Below are positions 38,501 through 51,389 of a DNA stretch of 64,000 bases, piece after piece. The stretch spans positions 96,001-160,000 of the forward strand of contig BK006941.2 of the NCBI GenBank assembly GCA_000146045.2, written 5' to 3'. The notes under the pieces are model-generated. The model was not told where the DNA came from. It worked only from the letters and a program-made list of their open reading frames with translations, and searched no databases. Within the stretch, counting starts at the first letter, position 1. The number at the start of each line of letters is the position of its first letter. The translations under genes and the position numbers were made by a program. This DNA is from TPA_inf: Saccharomyces (Eukaryota).

Positions 38501-41500
38501 TCCATTCCGAGAATTTCCATTGTTGAAGTGTTACTATCTCTTCTATCTTTACCCTCAAAAGCGAAGATTGCTAAAGATTGTTTCAACGCTCTGTGCCAAA
38601 GCATATCTGTTGCACCAAATCAAGAAGACCTTGATATGATACTATCAAATTTACTATCACCAAATCAATTTGTCCGTTCAACAATATTAGAAACTCTTGA
38701 TAACGAATTCGAATTAGAACCTTTTATGAAATATTCACCTGAAGTTTTCATTTGCAGATTTGATTCGGATCCTTCCAACCGCGAGATTGCAGATTTCATT
38801 TGGGAGTTCAACAAATTTGTAGTCAACGATGAATTACTAAAAAGCTTATTCCCACTATTCAATCAGGATGATAGTGGCTTGAGATTATTTGCGGCAAACG
38901 CGTACGCATTTGGTGCGGTAAGTCTGTTTACCTCTGAAGAGAACTCCTCGAAAGATTACTTAAATGATTTGCTGAACTTTTATAAAGAAAAGGCAAAGCC
39001 ATTGGAGCCAATTCTTGATCAATTTGGCTTGGTTCTTGTTTCTGCGAGTGAACAAAAAGATCCATGGCAAGGAAGAAGTACCGTTGCTATTACATTAAAA
39101 ATCATGGCTAAGGCTTTTTCTGCAGAGGATGATACTGTCGTTAACATTATAAAATTTTTGGTCGATGATGGAGGTCTAGTAGACAGAGAGCCTATTGTTC
39201 GTCAAGAAATGAAAGAAGCTGGTGTTGAATTAATTACGTTACATGGCTCACAAAACTCGAAGGATTTAATTCCTATATTTGAAGAAGCATTAAGCTCCAG
39301 TACGGACAGTGCCTTAAAAGAGAACGTTATTATTTTGTATGGTACATTAGCAAGACATTTACAGCAAAGTGATGCAAGGATTCACACGATCATTGAAAGA
39401 TTGCTTTCAACTTTGGATACTCCTTCTGCGGATATTCAACAGGCTGTGTCGGCTTGTATAGCACCACTAGTTTTCCAGTTCAAACAAAAAGTTGGTGATT
39501 ACTTGGGTATCCTAATGGAGAAACTGCTGAATCCAACTGTTGCTTCTTCTATGCGGAAAGGTGCCGCTTGGGGTATCGCTGGTTTAGTGAAAGGTTACGG
39601 TATCTCGGCTCTCTCGGAGTTTGACATTATTCGCAACCTCATCGAAGCTGCAGAAGATAAAAAGGAGCCAAAAAGACGTGAATCTGTTGGCTTCTGCTTT
39701 CAATATTTGTCTGAATCTCTAGGAAAGTTTTTTGAACCATATGTGATAGAAATTCTTCCAAATATTTTAAAGAATTTAGGGGATGCTGTTCCTGAAGTTA
39801 GAGATGCAACCGCTCGTGCCACTAAGGCTATAATGGCGCATACTACAGGTTACGGTGTTAAAAAGTTAATTCCAGTTGCTGTTTCTAATTTGGATGAAAT
39901 TGCTTGGAGAACTAAGAGGGGCTCTGTTCAATTGTTGGGTAATATGGCTTATTTAGATCCTACTCAATTGTCAGCTTCTTTGTCCACCATTGTCCCAGAA
40001 ATTGTTGGTGTATTGAACGACTCTCACAAAGAGGTGCGTAAGGCCGCTGATGAATCCTTGAAAAGATTCGGTGAAGTTATCAGAAATCCGGAAATTCAGA
40101 AATTGGTGCCCGTACTTTTGCAAGCTATCGGTGATCCAACAAAATACACTGAAGAGGCCTTGGATTCGTTAATTCAAACACAATTTGTCCATTATATTGA
40201 TGGTCCTTCACTAGCACTAATTATTCATATTATTCATCGTGGTATGCATGATAGATCTGCCAACATTAAGAGGAAAGCATGTAAGATCGTGGGCAATATG
40301 GCCATTTTGGTTGATACCAAAGATCTCATCCCATATTTACAACAGCTGATAGATGAAGTGGAGATTGCTATGGTGGATCCAGTTCCAAATACTAGAGCCA
40401 CAGCAGCACGTGCTTTGGGTGCTTTGGTAGAAAGGTTAGGTGAAGAGCAATTCCCAGATTTGATTCCTCGTCTACTAGATACCTTAAGTGACGAATCAAA
40501 ATCTGGTGATCGTCTCGGTTCTGCTCAAGCTCTAGCTGAAGTTATTAGTGGCTTGGGCTTGACCAAGTTGGATGAGATGTTACCAACCATTTTAGCTGGT
40601 GTAACCAATTTTCGTGCTTATATCAGGGAAGGATTCATGCCTTTGCTGCTTTTCCTTCCTGTTTGTTTTGGATCACAATTTGCTCCATACATTAATCAGA
40701 TTATTCAGCCTATTCTTTCCGGATTGGCCGATAATGATGAAAATATTCGCGATACTGCTTTGAAGGCTGGTAAATTAATTGTCAAAAACTACGCTACAAA
40801 GGCCGTTGATTTGTTGTTGCCTGAATTAGAAAGGGGTATGTTCGATGAAAATGACAGAATTCGCTTATCTTCTGTTCAATTAACCGGAGAACTATTGTTC
40901 CAAGTTACTGGTATTTCCTCCAGGAACGAATTTTCTGAGGAAGATGGTGATCATAATGGTGAATTCTCTGGTAAATTGGTCGATGTACTTGGCCAAGACC
41001 GTCGTGATAGAATTTTAGCCGCATTATTTGTATGCAGGAACGACACTTCTGGTATCGTACGTGCTACGACGGTTGACATTTGGAAGGCATTGGTTCCAAA
41101 TACTCCAAGAGCTGTGAAAGAGATCCTTCCAACATTGACTGGTATGATAGTCACTCACTTGGCTTCATCATCCAATGTATTACGCAACATTGCTGCTCAG
41201 ACCTTAGGTGATCTTGTCCGTCGTGTAGGTGGTAATGCTTTGTCCCAACTGTTACCAAGTTTGGAGGAATCTTTGATAGAAACATCAAACTCAGATTCGA
41301 GACAAGGTGTTTGTATTGCTCTTTATGAGTTAATTGAATCGGCTTCTACGGAAACGATATCACAGTTCCAATCTACCATCGTTAACATTATTCGTACGGC
41401 ATTAATTGATGAGTCGGCTACTGTCAGAGAAGCGGCTGCATTATCTTTTGATGTATTCCAAGATGTTGTAGGAAAAACTGCTGTTGATGAAGTTTTACCA

Positions 41501-44367: not shown

Positions 44368-45726
44368 CTATGAAAAGGCAATCAATCCACTGTTTTCTTT
44401 TTCCATTTCTTCTAGCCTATTTGAACTGTCTGCTTCTGTTTCTTCATTCATTTCTTGAATGATTTTATCCTCTTCTTCTGTCAGGGCACTTATATCTTGT
44501 GTCGGTATGCATTCAGCATCCATTCTGACACTTGGTGCTCCTTGCAAGTATCTGATATTTTCTAGACATCGTATTCTAATGTCTTCCAGTAGTTTTTTAC
44601 TGTTTTTGTTTTCGTATAAGTCATCTAACATAGGATAAAGTGAATAATCCGGCCCGAATGAGTCCCGGAATGGGATATCTTCGGGGATGTCTTCTGGTAG
44701 CAAGACATCATTTAAAATTCCTGTCTCGTAGGTCCAAAGCCGTGATACATTTCTAGGTGTATAACCTCCACCGCCCACTACTAGCATTGGTAGACCAAAT
44801 GATTTGACAAATTTTACGCATTCTCCATGTGCCTTTATATTTAAATTGAAGCATCCTAAGCGATCATGACCTAAGGAATCCGCACCGCATTGTTGGACAA
44901 TAAGTGTTGGTTTGAAAGTCATTATTAGAGGATCTACAATTGACTTGAAAAGGTTTATATATGAGTCGTCATCTATGCCATCTTCTAGGGGTACATTTAA
45001 TGCGAAATGTTTTCCTTTGTCGCAACCAATTTCTGTCAGATCACCAGTTCCTGGGAAAAATTCGCCATTATATTTATGAAAAGACAACGTGAAGACCCTA
45101 TCTGTGGTGTAAAATGCCTCCTGGACACCATCGCCGTGATGTAAGTCGATATCGATATAAAGGATTCTTGGGTGATATCGTAATAAGTTCAAAATAGAAA
45201 GCACAATATCATTTACATAGCAAAACCCAGATGGACTATTCTTTTTTGCATGATGAAGACCACCAGACCAATTTATCGCTATGTCCGATTGATTGTTGAT
45301 TAGTTTCCTGGTGGCGTCAAGGCTCGCACCAGTGTATAGTGTTGTATAATCATATAAATTTTGAAAAATAGGACAGTCGTCTCCAATGTTAAAATTTTCA
45401 AGTGTGCCTCTGGGCAGTTTGTTTGCATTTTCTGGTGAAACCTTCGAGAGAAAATTCACGTAGTCTTCCGAGTGAAATTGTAGTAATTCGTCTCTGGTAG
45501 CGCTTCTTGTTTCATAAAGGTCCATAATCTTGTGCAATCCATAAGAGGAAACTAGGTGATCCGTTAGCATTAACCGAAACGGCTTCATTGGATGCTTAAC
45601 ACCATAATGGTAATGTGAAACTTTGGAGTTAAAATGATACGATACCCTGGGAGAATAAGCAGAATTAAACTCAAATAATGGTTCGTTCTCCTTTGTTTTC
45701 ACATCATAACTAAATGTTCCAGACAT
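44368..45726 (-). CDS. HOS2: class I histone deacetylase (Set3 complex subunit), 452 aa
   Basis: [20 protein letters not shown]…[15 protein letters not shown]…GFCYVNDIV…[14 protein letters not shown]… Classic HDAC class I catalytic motifs. Length 452 aa. Confidence 0.95.
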
Positions 45727-45915: not shown

Positions 45916-46227
45916 CTATATAGAGTATAAACAGGGCATTCTACATTGGTATAGAGGTGCCTTAGGTATATAGTGGTACCGGTCACATAAATTGACGGGA
46001 ATATGCGTCTTTAGGCGGCTTTTGGCGTACAGTATTGTTCTTTCTTTCGTGCTTGTGAAACTTGTTATAAACAAAGAAAGAGAAAGATCTCCCCGGCATT
46101 CTGGAAGATCGGTAACCGCTGGAGCTATAGGAAAGGGAGATGGATAACAGTAAAGAAAACGGACCATATAAGTTAGCATTGGGGGTTTTCGAAAAAAATA
46201 AGAATTGGCATTCAGACTTGAATTCAT
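45916..46227 (-). CDS. small ORF, 103 aa, divergent from IME4 with start codons only 19 bp apart; position corresponds to haploid-specific YGL193C
   Basis: [47 protein letters not shown]… has no recognisable domain. Its ATG at 46227 sits 19 bp from the IME4 ATG at 46246 on the opposite strand. Confidence 0.4.
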
Positions 46228-46245
46228 AAAAGTTGTAAGCAGGCT

Positions 46246-48048
46246 ATGATTAACGATAAACTAGTACATTTTCTGATCCAGAATTATGATGACATCCTAA
46301 GAGCACCGCTTTCTGGACAGCTCAAAGATGTGTATTCACTGTACATCAGTGGCGGATACGATGATGAGATGCAGAAGTTGAGAAACGATAAAGACGAGGT
46401 CTTACAGTTTGAACAGTTTTGGAATGATCTTCAGGATATTATATTTGCAACGCCGCAGTCCATTCAATTTGACCAGAATCTATTAGTGGCAGATAGGCCA
46501 GAAAAAATTGTTTACCTGGACGTTTTTTCCTTGAAAATTCTCTATAACAAGTTCCATGCCTTCTACTATACATTAAAATCGTCCAGTTCTTCATGTGAAG
46601 AAAAAGTGTCGAGTTTAACAACAAAACCGGAAGCTGATTCGGAAAAAGACCAACTGCTGGGTAGACTGCTTGGAGTCCTGAACTGGGACGTTAACGTCAG
46701 CAACCAGGGGTTACCACGTGAACAACTGAGCAATCGCTTACAAAATTTATTGAGGGAAAAACCATCATCTTTTCAGCTTGCTAAAGAAAGAGCCAAATAC
46801 ACGACCGAGGTCATTGAATACATCCCGATATGTAGTGACTATTCGCATGCATCTCTATTGTCCACCTCGGTGTACATTGTCAATAACAAAATCGTTTCTT
46901 TACAATGGTCCAAAATATCCGCATGTCAGGAAAATCACCCAGGATTAATTGAGTGCATTCAATCAAAAATTCACTTTATCCCTAATATCAAACCACAAAC
47001 TGATATTTCGTTAGGAGATTGTTCCTATTTGGATACCTGTCATAAATTAAATACGTGTCGATACATTCATTACCTGCAATATATTCCGTCATGCTTGCAA
47101 GAGCGAGCTGATCGTGAAACTGCGAGTGAAAATAAAAGAATACGGTCAAACGTTTCCATTCCATTTTATACTCTGGGCAATTGCTCCGCACATTGTATCA
47201 AAAAGGCTTTACCTGCACAGTGGATCCGTTGCGATGTGCGGAAATTTGATTTTAGGGTTCTTGGAAAGTTTTCGGTAGTTATTGCAGATCCTGCATGGAA
47301 TATCCATATGAACCTACCATACGGTACTTGCAACGATATTGAACTATTAGGTTTGCCTTTGCACGAACTACAAGATGAAGGTATTATTTTTCTTTGGGTG
47401 ACGGGTAGAGCTATAGAATTGGGTAAAGAGTCTTTGAATAACTGGGGTTACAACGTGATAAATGAAGTTTCATGGATAAAGACAAACCAACTGGGTAGAA
47501 CAATTGTTACAGGTCGTACGGGTCATTGGTTAAATCATTCTAAGGAGCATTTATTGGTGGGCTTAAAGGGTAATCCAAAGTGGATCAACAAACATATTGA
47601 CGTCGATTTGATCGTATCAATGACCAGAGAGACTAGTAGAAAGCCTGATGAACTGTATGGTATAGCAGAACGGTTGGCAGGCACCCATGCCAGAAAACTA
47701 GAGATATTCGGAAGGGATCACAATACGCGGCCTGGCTGGTTTACCATCGGAAACCAGTTGACAGGAAATTGCATTTACGAAATGGATGTCGAGAGGAAGT
47801 ACCAGGAGTTTATGAAGAGCAAAACTGGAACCAGCCACACTGGTACTAAAAAAATCGACAAAAAGCAACCTTCAAAATTACAGCAGCAGCATCAGCAGCA
47901 GTATTGGAATAATATGGATATGGGGAGTGGTAAGTATTATGCTGAGGCCAAGCAGAATCCTATGAATCAAAAACATACTCCCTTTGAATCCAAACAGCAA
48001 CAAAAACAACAATTCCAAACACTAAATAACCTATATTTTGCTCAGTAA
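46246..48048 (+). CDS. IME4: mRNA N6-adenosine methyltransferase (MT-A70 family), meiosis inducer, 600 aa
   Basis: [30 protein letters not shown]…; MT-A70 catalytic region with the DPPW-like motif ([15 protein letters not shown]) and a Gln-rich C-terminus. Length 600 aa. Confidence 0.95.
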
Positions 48049-48203
48049 AGCGTTAAATAATCCTTTTAAACATTAATAGCATTGCATAAAAAAGATGGTC
48101 ATAAAAAAGACTGCAGCGGGAAGTAAATGGTTTCCTGGTCTGTATTAGACAAACTTTGGAATAGAGAAGGATATGGTTTATGTCCAATAATTATTATCCG
48201 AGT

Positions 48204-48223
48204 CCGTGTATTTTTTTACATCA
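48204..48223. promoter_or_regulatory. a1-alpha2 (haploid-specific gene) operator about 155 bp downstream of the IME4 stop, placed to control the IME4 antisense transcript
   Basis: CCGTGTATTTTTTTACATCA matches the a1-alpha2 operator consensus TCRTGTNNWNANNTACATCA at the TGT and ACATCA half-sites with correct spacing. Location matches the known antisense (RME2/IME4-AS) promoter that a1-alpha2 represses in diploids. Confidence 0.6.
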
Positions 48224-48594
48224 ACTGGAACAATTTATTACCCGGATGTTTAAAAATTGTTGTCGCCTGGAGAAAGCTAATACTAGTTCTGGCCATATTT
48301 TCAACCATTAAACACTACTAATGTAATTACTTGACTTATTTGCTCCCACTCTTGGTCGGTTCTTTCCCATGGCGCATTCTACCATTCTTTTTTTCTACTC
48401 CAATCGTTCTTACTGGAAACTGTGGGAATAGCGAAGAACGACTATTATTTGCTAATACAGAGTAAGCTATCCTGCTGAATAGGTAGACGATAGTAGTAAC
48501 CCAACGCCGCTATCCTTTCGATTATACCGCTATGAATGTAGTGATATGGTGCGGTATTGACACAATATAGTAATTTCGGGTAATTTTTTTTCCC

Positions 48595-48602
48595 ACCAAT
48601 GA
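48595..48602 (+). promoter_or_regulatory. HAP2/3/4/5 CCAAT box candidate (ACCAATGA) about 205 bp upstream of COX13
   Basis: tcccACCAATGAgagg fits the ACCAATNA Hap complex consensus. COX13 is a respiratory gene of the kind typically HAP-regulated. Confidence 0.35.
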
Positions 48603-48807
48603 GAGGCGGTACTGGGAGTATCGGTCTAAGAGAATCGAAAAATAACCCCCAGCTGGGATGTGATCACGATGAGTGACGGGATACATTAAATATAACAAAC
48701 ATACACGTTGCCTTGAACGTTTTCACTACACATCGCATGTGTTTTATCTAGATTTAAAATCATATTACTACAGTTCTACAGTTATACAAATAACAAACAA
48801 TAGAAAA

Positions 48808-49197
48808 ATGTTTAGACAGTGTGCTAAGAGATATGCATCTTCATTACCCCCAAATGCTTTGAAACCTGCATTTGGCCCACCAGATAAAGTGGCAGCTCAA
48901 AAATTTAAAGAATCATTAATGGCCACTGAAAAGCATGCGAAGGACACATCTAATATGTGGGTTAAAATCTCAGTTTGGGTCGCCCTACCAGCAATTGCTT
49001 TAACAGCTGTGAACACATACTTTGTTGAAAAGGAGCATGCTGAGCATCGTGAACATTTGAAACATGTGCCAGACTCCGAATGGCCAAGGGATTACGAGTT
49101 TATGAATATCAGGTCTAAGCCTTTTTTCTGGGGTGACGGTGATAAGACATTATTCTGGAATCCTGTTGTCAACAGGCACATCGAGCACGACGATTAA
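48808..49197 (+). CDS. COX13: cytochrome c oxidase subunit VIa, 129 aa
   Basis: MFRQCAKRYASSLPPNALKPAFGPPDKVAAQKFKESL…WNPVVNRHIEHDD. The track ORF begins 45 codons upstream at another in-frame Met; I chose the ATG at 48808, which yields the 129-aa protein. Confidence 0.88.
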   Translation: MFRQCAKRYASSLPPNALKPAFGPPDKVAAQKFKESLMATEKHAKDTSNMWVKISVWVALPAIALTAVNTYFVEKEHAEHREHLKHVPDSEWPRDYEFMNIRSKPFFWGDGDKTLFWNPVVNRHIEHDD

Positions 49198-49808: not shown

Positions 49809-51389
49809 TTATAATGCGGAAAAAATGAATAAATTATTAGTTGCTGCAACAGCAATACTATTTTCTCTTGGATGCCATGAGAAATGTAAAATATTCTTCT
49901 TGAAATCAATATCGTCACCCCAATCCTTATTTCTTGCAGACCTTTGCGCTAGCGAACCGTATCTTTTGTTCCTGAACGCTGTTTTGTCAGCTTGTAACAC
50001 GATTTCATTCATTTCGGTTCCCGAGTCCTCCGAATTTGCTCCTTCTCCTCCCGCTATACTGCTTCTAGAGCTATTACTACTTCCCACCATGCCTGTGTTG
50101 CGTCCGTTACTCCTACGCTTGTGGCTGTTGCCACTACTACTAGAATCTTTATTTTGTATGCTGTTGTGGATATTTTTATTGCTGTTGCTATTAGGTGCGT
50201 TGTGTTCATCAAAAGTTTTGACTATGCCATTATCATTATCACCAGAAGTTACTACATTAGGATAGATCATGAAATTGTTATTGTAAGAACCAGTCATTAC
50301 ACTTGAACTATCACCACTAAAATTAACTTCAAATTTATCGAAAATCGCATCGTTTTCATAGGTATCACTCAATCTTTCCTTCAATTGCTCATGTATGTTT
50401 ATGGTTTTCAAAGGCTTATTATCCATATTTACGTCCCAAATTTTGACAGTTAAATAATCTCTGGATGCAATATACCTACCATTTGGACTAAATTTTATGT
50501 CGGAAATTGACGACGTGATTTCTGTAAAAAAATTATGATTGATTGGATCCAAATATTCTTCAAATGTTTTGGTTTTATTGTCACATAGGGAATTTTGTCT
50601 CATATCACACAACTTTATTGTACCTTTGGAAGAAGAGTACATGAATAAATTACATTCTTGCGGATGAAATTCAGCGCTTGTGATCACTTCGGTAAGTTCT
50701 TCCATATTGGTTGGCTTGATATCTACGATGTTGAAGCTCTGATCTGGTATGTCCAGATTCCATAAATTGATTCTCAAGTCGTCAGCACTTAAAAATGTTT
50801 CCTGATCAGAATTCAACGATATCGAATTAATGTGATAGGTATGTGCATTACTATATATACGCTTTGGGGTGGCAGCAATGATTTTGTCATGCTGTGATAA
50901 TTGAGGCAGTTTCAGCGATTGTAAAGATAATACAGCCCTCACGGAGCCTCCTCTACTGTTATGGTTATCGGGCTTGCCTTTTTTCGCAAACGTAACCCCT
51001 TCTGTTAAGTTGTTCTGGCTTACCAATTTTATATTTTTCTCATAAACTTTCCAAAGTTTTATAGTTTTATCATTTGTGCTCAAAAGAAAGTGTGATCTTT
51101 GAGTTGGTCGTAACCATTTGATTTCATTTATCTTCTCTTCAATTTCTAAGGATTTTAAATAATCAAATTCTGCGTCATGACTTTGAAACTCTGTTAAAAA
51201 CTTATATTCGCAATGTCTACTATTACTTCTTTCAAAAAGTACCACACGGCCACCTTTATCACCAGTGGCCAGATAATTTCCAGTATAGTCAAATTCTACA
51301 GCTGTAATTAGATCCGCCTCTGTCACCACAATATCTGCTTTATCACCAAAACATTGGCTGAATTTAAAATCAAAATTGTTTTGTGCCAT
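49809..51389 (-). CDS. CDC55: PP2A regulatory B (B55) subunit, WD40 repeats, 526 aa
   Basis: [54 protein letters not shown]… B55 family with the yeast-specific Asn/Ser-rich insertion. Length 526 aa. Confidence 0.95.

What the first reader, a model, noticed from the sequence alone, without database searches (positions are those of the whole stretch)
48204..48223. a1-alpha2 operator downstream of IME4: the antisense-transcription switch
CCGTGTATTTTTTTACATCA matches the bipartite a1-alpha2 operator at both half-sites with correct spacing. It lies beyond the 3' end of IME4, not in any promoter of a sense gene. This placement is what is expected for cell-type control of an antisense transcript running back through IME4: on in haploids, repressed by a1-alpha2 in a/alpha diploids to allow IME4 sense expression and meiosis. 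A short track ORF (48127-48321) overlaps it but is probably irrelevant.
Basis: partly seen in the sequence, partly recalled or inferred. Interest (0 to 1): 0.55.

Follow-up and report, generated by a model that had tools for sequence, protein, structure and literature searches.

The report
Known a1-alpha2 operator behind IME4

Summary
CCGTGTATTTTTTTACATCA is at 48204-48223, 155 nt past the IME4 stop codon. It is the only exact match in the 64-kb window to the a1-alpha2 core CRTGT-N7-TACATCA, against 0.02 expected by chance.

The gene identities hold: IME4 (MT-A70, METTL3-like) lies upstream and COX13 downstream, on the same strand.

The site is a sharp phylogenetic footprint. In five Saccharomyces species 17 of its 20 bases are invariant, in a spacer that is 28% invariant overall. 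An operator in the same orientation also lies 3' of IME4 in Naumovozyma, Kazachstania, Tetrapisispora phaffii and T. blattae. I found none in Zygosaccharomyces rouxii, Torulaspora, Kluyveromyces lactis or Nakaseomyces bracarensis.

The literature already covers it:
- Nagaraj 2004 showed a1-alpha2 binding to this region by gel shift, reporter repression and ChIP. They filed it as the "COX13 site" and noted that it sits next to the IME4 3' end.
- Reviews citing Hongay 2006 and Gelfand 2011 describe exactly the proposed switch. The antisense RNA RME2 is on in haploids and repressed by a1-alpha2 in a/alpha diploids, which relieves transcriptional interference on IME4.

Verdict: real, functional, correctly interpreted and already known. 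The only modest additions are a conserved Reb1-like site 14 bp beyond the operator and the apparent post-WGD distribution.

The parts
48204..48223 (+). a1-alpha2 (haploid-specific-gene type) operator. The alpha2 half-site CGTGT is at 48205-48209, the A/T spacer at 48210-48216, and the a1 half-site TACATCA at 48217-48223. On the antisense strand it reads TGATGTAAAAAAATACACGG.
   Evidence: Sequence read. It is the only exact core match in the window, 0.02 expected. 17 of 20 bases are invariant in 5 Saccharomyces species. Orthologous sites occur in 4 more post-WGD genera. Gel shift, ChIP and reporter repression are reported in PMC517709.
46246..48048 (+). IME4, the mRNA m6A methyltransferase (600 aa). 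It is the sense gene controlled by the switch.
   Evidence: Pfam MT-A70, E=2.7e-59. METTL3 catalytic subunit in the PDB, E=4e-91. It is 90% identical to S. paradoxus Ime4 and 99% identical to the top-scoring cluster (P0001, which carries no source name).
45916..48200 (-). Approximate extent of the RME2 / IME4-AS antisense transcription unit. The 5' end is inferred to lie between the operator and the IME4 stop codon. The transcript runs back through IME4 and probably through the 103-aa ORF at 45916-46227. Both ends are inferred, not measured.
   Evidence: Existence and regulation come from the literature. A terminator inserted directly after the IME4 stop codon blocks the antisense RNA, so the TSS lies 3' of the stop (PMC4920891). 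YGL193C is strongly haploid-specific yet has no a1-alpha2 site or ChIP signal of its own (PMC517709 table).
48185..48197 (-). TATA-like A/T element (GATAATAATTATT on the minus strand), 7 bp downstream of the operator in the antisense direction. It is a candidate core-promoter element of RME2 (inferred).
   Evidence: Sequence. An ATAA core (48191-48194) is invariant in 5 species. S. arboricola reads CTATAAAC and the others AATAAA-like on the minus strand.
48238..48245 (+). Reb1-like site TTACCCGG, 14 bp beyond the a1 half-site, which is upstream of the operator with respect to the antisense promoter. Its role is inferred.
   Evidence: ACCCGG is invariant in 5 Saccharomyces species. TTACCCG sits at the same offset (+31 to +33) in S. 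cerevisiae, S. arboricola, S. eubayanus and Tetrapisispora phaffii. TTACCCGG occurs 4 times in the window against 0.53 expected. Assigning the motif to Reb1 rests on my own knowledge.
48808..49197 (+). COX13 (cytochrome c oxidase subunit VIa, 129 aa), the downstream neighbour. It is not regulated by the operator.
   Evidence: Pfam COX6A, E=3e-38. COX13 is not haploid-specific although a1-alpha2 is bound upstream of it (PMC517709).

Best explanation
The site is the a1-alpha2 operator of the RME2 (IME4 antisense) promoter of Saccharomyces cerevisiae. In MATa or MATalpha haploids no a1-alpha2 heterodimer exists. A promoter in the IME4-COX13 spacer then fires toward IME4, and the convergent antisense transcription blocks productive IME4 sense transcription in cis by transcriptional interference. 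In a/alpha diploids the a1 and alpha2 homeodomain proteins bind the two half-sites as a heterodimer. Alpha2 contacts CGTGT and a1 contacts TGATGTA, and the bound heterodimer represses the antisense promoter. IME4 can then be transcribed under starvation and promote IME1 expression and meiosis. Recruitment of the Tup1-Cyc8 corepressor is established knowledge for a1-alpha2 generally and was not tested here. Shown here: sequence match, uniqueness, conservation, placement and orientation. Taken from the literature: binding, the antisense RNA, its cell-type regulation and its cis action. Inferred: the exact TSS, the TATA-like element and a role for the adjacent Reb1-like site.
For: There is one exact core match in the window, against 0.02 expected. 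The flanking genes are IME4 and COX13. The 20-mer ties for the best conserved 20-mer in the 759-bp spacer, with 17/20 invariant against a 28% background. The only half-site change is G to A in S. eubayanus, which stays within the R of the consensus. A same-orientation operator lies 3' of IME4 in N. dairenensis and T. phaffii (0 mismatches) and in K. africana and T. blattae (1 mismatch). Each has P<=0.01 in shuffles of its own spacer. On the antisense strand the order is Reb1-like site, then operator, then TATA-like element, then the IME4 3' end, which is the usual activator-site/operator/TATA layout. [quoted passage not shown] Reviews and later experimental papers describe RME2 as haploid-only and repressed by a1-alpha2 bound downstream of IME4.
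Against: Nothing found contradicts it. Four caveats apply. (1) The primary papers (Hongay 2006, Gelfand 2011, van Werven 2012) are not in the held library, so I could not confirm from their text that the mutated or bound site is this exact 20-mer. The identity is inferred, because no other match with 2 or fewer mismatches exists in the IME4-COX13 spacer. (2) No curated a1-alpha2 weight matrix was available, so scoring is by mismatch count against a consensus. (3) No expression or TSS data could be examined. (4) The sequence match alone is modest on a genome scale: the window expectation of 0.02 implies a few chance matches per 12-Mb genome.
Confidence: 0.96

Rival explanations
1. The operator is a conventional upstream repressor site for the downstream sense gene COX13, making COX13 haploid-specific.
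For: The site lies 585 bp upstream of the COX13 ATG on the same strand. It was originally found in a scan of 800-bp upstream regions and listed under COX13.
Against: COX13 expression is not haploid-specific (expression p=0.41), and the authors state that a1-alpha2 is bound but does not repress it (PMC517709). COX13's own conserved promoter blocks (a Reb1-like CGGGTAA at 48577-48583 and a CCAAT box at 48596-48600) lie about 350 bp further downstream. T. blattae has lost COX13 from this position yet keeps the operator 219 nt after IME4.
Confidence: 0.02
2. It is a chance match in A/T-rich 3' flanking DNA, or the conservation reflects IME4 3'-end formation signals rather than a1-alpha2 binding.
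For: The centre of the site is a T7 run typical of yeast 3' regions. A 12-position core is expected a few times per genome by chance (extrapolated).
Against: Conservation covers both G/C-containing half-sites exactly, and the variation falls only at degenerate positions. In distant genera the spacer sequence differs (AAATTTT, TAAAAAT, AAATAAT) while the half-sites and the 7-nt spacing are retained, which is the signature of selection on protein contacts rather than on a poly(A) signal. [quoted passage not shown]
Confidence: 0.01
3. The region encodes a small protein (the 64-aa ORF at 48127-48321), and the conserved block is coding sequence.
For: An ATG-initiated 64-codon ORF spans the site.
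Against: It has no Pfam family. The ORF is absent or in a different frame or length in S. paradoxus, S. arboricola and S. eubayanus. Conservation is confined to about 20 nt plus a 6-8 nt block rather than spread over an ORF-length stretch.
Confidence: 0.01

Closest known systems
The RME2 / IME4-AS a1-alpha2 site of S. cerevisiae (Hongay et al. 2006 Cell 127:735; Gelfand et al. 2011 MCB 31:1701; the 'COX13 site' of Nagaraj et al. 2004, PMC517709)
   Same: It is the same locus (IME4-COX13 spacer of chromosome VII), the same placement downstream of the IME4 coding sequence and the same proposed mechanism. It is the only a1-alpha2-like sequence in the spacer, so it is that very element.
   Different: Nothing of substance differs. 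I could not read the primary papers to match the sequence letter for letter.
Classical haploid-specific-gene operators (HO, RME1, STE5, MATalpha1 and others)
   Same: It has the same bipartite homeodomain half-sites, a fixed 7-nt A/T-rich spacing and a position between an upstream factor site and a TATA-like element of the promoter it represses.
   Different: The repressed promoter drives a non-coding antisense RNA and sits at the 3' end of a protein-coding gene. The net effect on that gene is therefore positive in diploids: repression of a repressor acting in cis.
RME3 / ZIP2 antisense switch (Gelfand et al. 2011, as summarised in PMC9680404 and PMC3857879)
   Same: A meiosis gene is silenced in haploid or vegetative cells by an antisense lncRNA that a1-alpha2 controls from the gene's 3' side.
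   Different: It is a different locus, outside this window. It was not examined here.
IRT1 lncRNA control of IME1 (van Werven et al. 2012)
   Same: It is also mating-type control of meiotic entry through cis-acting non-coding transcription. Together with RME2 it suffices to dictate entry into sporulation.
   Different: IRT1 is a promoter-overlapping sense-direction lncRNA activated by Rme1, and it acts through Set2/Set3 chromatin marks. There a1-alpha2 acts indirectly, by repressing RME1, rather than through an operator at the lncRNA promoter.

Membership tests
a1-alpha2 (hsg) operator | alpha2 half-site C(A/G)TGT | tested here: met
   CGTGT is at 48205-48209. S. eubayanus and the distant genera have CATGT.
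a1-alpha2 (hsg) operator | a1 half-site TACATCA (TGATGTA on the other strand) | tested here: met
   TACATCA is at 48217-48223 and is invariant in 5 Saccharomyces species. K. africana and T. blattae have TGCATCA.
a1-alpha2 (hsg) operator | Fixed spacing of 7 nt between CRTGT and TACATCA, with an A/T-rich centre | tested here: met
   The spacer ATTTTTT is 7 nt. The same 7-nt A/T spacing occurs in all 9 species that carry the site. A similar sequence with 8-nt spacing inside IME4 (46329-46348) does not qualify.
a1-alpha2 (hsg) operator | More than chance: rarity and evolutionary conservation | tested here: met
   There is 1 match against 0.02 expected. 17 of 20 bases are invariant against a 28% background. 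Independent occurrences in 4 other genera each have P<=0.01.
a1-alpha2 (hsg) operator | Bound by the a1-alpha2 heterodimer in vitro and in a/alpha cells | not testable with these tools
   Literature only. PMC517709 reports a gel shift of moderate affinity, positive ChIP and a1-alpha2-dependent repression in a heterologous reporter for the site in this spacer.
RME2-type antisense (transcriptional interference) switch | Operator and promoter located 3' of the sense ORF and oriented convergently | tested here: met
   The site starts 155 nt after the IME4 stop codon. The order Reb1-like site, operator, TATA-like element reads toward IME4 on the minus strand. Promoter polarity is inferred from this motif order.
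RME2-type antisense (transcriptional interference) switch | Antisense transcript present in haploids and absent in a/alpha diploids | not testable with these tools
   Literature only: strand-specific qRT-PCR and tiling arrays; nanopore cDNA, haploid versus diploid.
RME2-type antisense (transcriptional interference) switch | Antisense transcription represses the sense gene in cis | not testable with these tools
   Literature only. Inserting a terminator after the IME4 stop codon lowers the antisense RNA and raises Ime4 mRNA and protein in haploids (PMC4920891). Reviews of Hongay 2006 and Gelfand 2011 say the same.

The most novel reading that the evidence does not exclude
The operator is one half of a conserved composite module. 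The a1-alpha2 site and a Reb1-type site sit 12-14 bp apart, at the same spacing from Saccharomyces to Tetrapisispora. The module appears to have been installed downstream of IME4 in the post-WGD lineage only, since I found none in Z. rouxii, T. globosa or K. lactis. It was apparently lost in Nakaseomyces bracarensis, where COX13 synteny is also broken. If this holds, direct a1-alpha2 control of IME4 antisense transcription is a datable evolutionary innovation. Reb1 might serve both as the factor that keeps the antisense promoter open by default and as a barrier between IME4/RME2 and COX13. The antisense IME4 RNA reported in Z. rouxii (PMC4827841) would then be controlled in some other way.
Probability: 0.35. 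Interest if true: 0.3.

Novelty: already known. Interest (0 to 1): 0.1.

Why it matters
The element is the cis-acting heart of a classic example of gene regulation by antisense transcription. It lets mating-type information (a1-alpha2 exists only in a/alpha diploids) decide whether the m6A methyltransferase Ime4 is made, and so whether a yeast cell can enter meiosis. For the scan its value is as a positive control: a reader working from raw sequence recovered a true, experimentally validated regulatory site and its mechanism. It does not open a new question. The small additions here refine the evolutionary picture but do not change the mechanism. They are the site's presence in four more post-WGD genera, its absence in three pre-WGD species, and a co-conserved Reb1-like motif.

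Tried and rejected
(1) My first pattern used an 8-nt spacer. It missed the site and returned only chance-level hits. The correct spacing is 7 nt.

(2) I tried to read the primary papers (Gelfand 2011 PMC3126345, Hongay 2006 by DOI, van Werven 2012 PMC3472370, van Werven & Amon 2011 PMC3203461). None is held.

(3) I looked for the operator sequence or a weight matrix in the held literature. None was found, so no PWM score could be computed. I used mismatch counts against the consensus and shuffle controls instead.

(4) A search for RME2/YGL193C returned arginine-methylation papers ('Rme2') and nothing useful.

(5) I rejected the 64-aa ORF as a coding feature.

(6) I rejected COX13 as the regulated target.

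(7) In Z. rouxii, T. globosa, K. lactis and N. bracarensis I searched for degenerate operators (6-8 nt spacing, up to 2 mismatches) and for lone a1 half-sites. The spacers held no a1 half-site and only two 2-mismatch hits on the minus strand, which I regard as chance.

(8) The bacterial promoter/terminator scanner, the Rfam search and the phage, plasmid and E. coli collections do not apply to a yeast nuclear locus, so I did not use them.

Full report
**What is there**

The window is a stretch of the left arm of Saccharomyces cerevisiae chromosome VII.
- The 600-aa ORF at 46246-48048 (+) carries an MT-A70 domain (E=2.7e-59).
- It matches the human METTL3 catalytic subunit in the PDB at E=4e-91.
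- It is 90% identical to S. paradoxus Ime4 and 99% identical to the top cluster, which carries no source name. It is IME4.
- Upstream lie a histone deacetylase (HOS2, 44368-45726, -) and a 2673-aa GCN1-type ORF.
- Downstream lie COX13 (48808-49197, +, Pfam COX6A) and a WD40 protein (CDC55, 49809-51389, -).

The reported 20-mer CCGTGTATTTTTTTACATCA is exactly at 48204-48223. It starts 155 nt after the IME4 stop codon and 585 nt before the COX13 ATG.

**Is it more than chance?**

The a1-alpha2 core as I know it is CRTGT, seven unspecified bases, then TACATCA. The 20-nt consensus is TC(A/G)TGTNN(A/T)NANNTACATCA. I could not retrieve this consensus from the held papers, so it rests on my own knowledge.
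- The core occurs once in the 64-kb window on both strands, against 0.02 expected from dinucleotide-preserving shuffles.
- With up to two mismatches the window gives 7 hits against 10 expected. Only the exact hit stands out.
- My first attempt used an 8-nt spacer by mistake and returned only noise.
- Against the 20-nt consensus the site differs only at the two weakest positions, 1 and 11.
- On a whole-genome scale a 12-position core would still arise a few times by chance, so the sequence match alone is suggestive rather than conclusive.

**Conservation in Saccharomyces**

I retrieved the orthologous loci of S. paradoxus, S. kudriavzevii (from the VIN7 hybrid), S. arboricola and S. eubayanus. 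I then aligned the IME4-COX13 spacers.
- The spacer is poorly conserved: 28% of columns are invariant.
- The operator is an island. 17 of its 20 columns are invariant, which ties for the best 20-mer in the spacer, and 48212-48223 is a 12-column invariant run.
- The only half-site substitution is G to A in S. eubayanus (CATGT), which stays within the R of the consensus.
- A second small island, ACCCGG within TTACCCGG (48238-48245), lies 14 bp beyond the a1 half-site.

**Conservation in more distant yeasts**

| Species | Best match 3' of IME4 | Mismatches | Distance after stop |
|---|---|---|---|
| Naumovozyma dairenensis | CGTGTTAAAAATTACATCA | 0 | 213 nt |
| Tetrapisispora phaffii | CATGTAAATTTTTACATCA | 0 | 165 nt |
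| Kazachstania africana | CATGTAAATAATTGCATCA | 1 | 49 nt |
| Tetrapisispora (Henningerozyma) blattae | CATGTAAAAAATTGCATCA | 1 | 219 nt |

- All four sites are on the IME4 sense strand, with the alpha2 half-site nearest IME4.
- In shuffles of each species' own spacer, a match this good on that strand has P<=0.01.
- The spacer bases differ between genera while the half-sites and the 7-nt spacing persist. This is the pattern expected for selection on protein contacts.
- T. phaffii also has TTACCCGG at the same offset as Saccharomyces.
- T. blattae keeps the operator although COX13 is no longer downstream.
- Zygosaccharomyces rouxii, Torulaspora globosa, Kluyveromyces lactis and Nakaseomyces bracarensis have no match with one mismatch or fewer anywhere in the locus. 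Their spacers do not contain even a lone a1 half-site.

**Anatomy on the antisense strand**

Read 5' to 3' on the minus strand, the order is:
1. CCGGGTAA, a Reb1-type motif (assignment from my own knowledge), at 48245-48238.
2. The operator TGATGTAAAAAAATACACGG at 48223-48204.
3. An A/T-rich TATA-like element, GATAATAATTATT, at 48197-48185. Its ATAA core is invariant, and it reads CTATAAAC in S. arboricola.
4. About 135 nt further on, the IME4 stop codon.

This is the usual layout of an a1-alpha2-repressed promoter, with the operator between an upstream factor site and the TATA element, and it points into IME4. The TSS is therefore inferred to lie between roughly 48050 and 48190.

A published experiment fits this. 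A terminator inserted directly after the IME4 stop codon reduces the antisense RNA and raises Ime4 mRNA and protein in haploids (PMC4920891).

**What the literature says**

- Nagaraj et al. 2004 (PMC517709) scanned 800 bp upstream of every ORF with an energy matrix derived from mutational data. They found a site upstream of COX13.
  - It bound purified a1-alpha2 with moderate affinity.
  - It repressed a heterologous reporter significantly.
  - It was occupied in vivo by ChIP.
  - COX13 itself was not haploid-specific.
  - The spacer contains no other match with 2 or fewer mismatches, so that site must be 48204-48223.
- Reviews summarising Hongay et al. 2006 and Gelfand et al. 2011 (PMC9680404 and PMC3857879; also PMC5001618, and PMC4827841) give the mechanism.
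  - Haploids transcribe IME4 antisense (IME4-AS, or RME2) from a relatively strong promoter.
  - That transcription silences IME4 in cis by transcriptional interference, reportedly at elongation.
  - In a/alpha diploids a1-alpha2 binds downstream of IME4, represses RME2 and so permits IME4 expression and meiosis.
- Nanopore cDNA data confirm RME2 as haploid-only and IME4 as diploid-only (PMC7283198).
- The primary papers themselves are not in the held library.

**Rivals**

- Regulation of COX13 is contradicted by the published expression data. It is also contradicted by the fact that COX13's own conserved promoter blocks (CGGGTAA at 48577-48583, CCAAT at 48596-48600) lie about 350 bp away.
- A chance match or a poly(A)-signal explanation is contradicted by the half-site-specific conservation across genera.
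- The 64-aa ORF at 48127-48321 has no family and is not preserved in sister species.

**Verdict**

Novelty: already known. Interest: low (0.1). It is useful mainly as a positive control for the scan.

Two points may go slightly beyond what I could find in the searchable literature. Both are minor and rest on 13 species:
- the co-conserved Reb1-like motif at a fixed distance from the operator;
- the apparent restriction of the 3' operator to post-WGD yeasts.

Noticed in passing
window 48238-48245 (+); L002 about 4975, L003 about 5022, L011 about 4275: A Reb1-like TTACCCGG motif lies 12-14 bp beyond the a1 half-site. ACCCGG is invariant in 5 Saccharomyces species, and the motif sits at the same offset in Tetrapisispora phaffii. 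It could be the factor that keeps the RME2 promoter open in haploids, and/or a roadblock or insulator between IME4 and COX13. I found no mention of it in the held papers.
   Followed up: partly
L006 4607-4625, L007 4395-4413, L011 4244-4262, L012 4574-4592; absent in L005, L008, L009, L010: A same-orientation a1-alpha2 operator lies 3' of IME4 in Naumovozyma, Kazachstania and both Tetrapisispora species, all post-WGD. It is absent from Z. rouxii, T. globosa and K. lactis (pre-WGD) and from Nakaseomyces bracarensis. Yet Z. rouxii haploids are reported to make antisense IME4 RNA (PMC4827841), so that RNA must be controlled differently or from a diverged site.
   Followed up: partly
window 45916-46227 (-): The 103-aa ORF just upstream of IME4 (the YGL193C position) has no Pfam family. 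It decays across species: 103, 80 and 64 aa, then none in S. eubayanus and S. kudriavzevii. Nagaraj 2004 lists YGL193C as strongly haploid-specific but without an a1-alpha2 site or ChIP signal. The simplest reading is that its 'expression' is the 3' part of the RME2 antisense transcript, which runs on the same strand.
   Followed up: partly
window 48577-48583, 48591-48602 and 48613-48624 (+): Three conserved blocks lie about 185-230 bp upstream of COX13. They are a second Reb1-like CGGGTAA, a CCAAT box (CCCACCAATGAGA, plausibly a HAP-complex site for this respiratory gene) and an invariant TGGGAGTATCGG of unknown assignment.
   Followed up: no
window 46329-46348 (+): TGTGTATTCACTGTACATCA lies inside the 5' part of the IME4 ORF. 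It resembles the operator but has an 8-nt spacing and a T in place of the first C. It is probably chance. Operator-like sites within ORFs were reported not to be bound in vivo.
   Followed up: no
window 39370-39388 (-): CGTGTGAATCCTTGCATCA lies inside the GCN1-like ORF and is a 1-mismatch match to the operator core. It carries the same TGCATCA variant seen in the K. africana and T. blattae IME4 sites. Its centre is not A/T-rich and it sits in a long ORF, so it is likely non-functional.
   Followed up: no
L004 3001-4668 and downstream: The S. kudriavzevii (VIN7 hybrid) IME4 gene model is 555 aa and ends early. The DNA after its annotated stop still aligns with the IME4 C-terminal coding sequence of the other species (poly-Q/N region), and the shared stop lies about 140 nt further on. 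This is either a frameshift in that assembly or a gene-model artefact. It inflates the apparent distance from the stop codon to the operator (298 nt).
   Followed up: no
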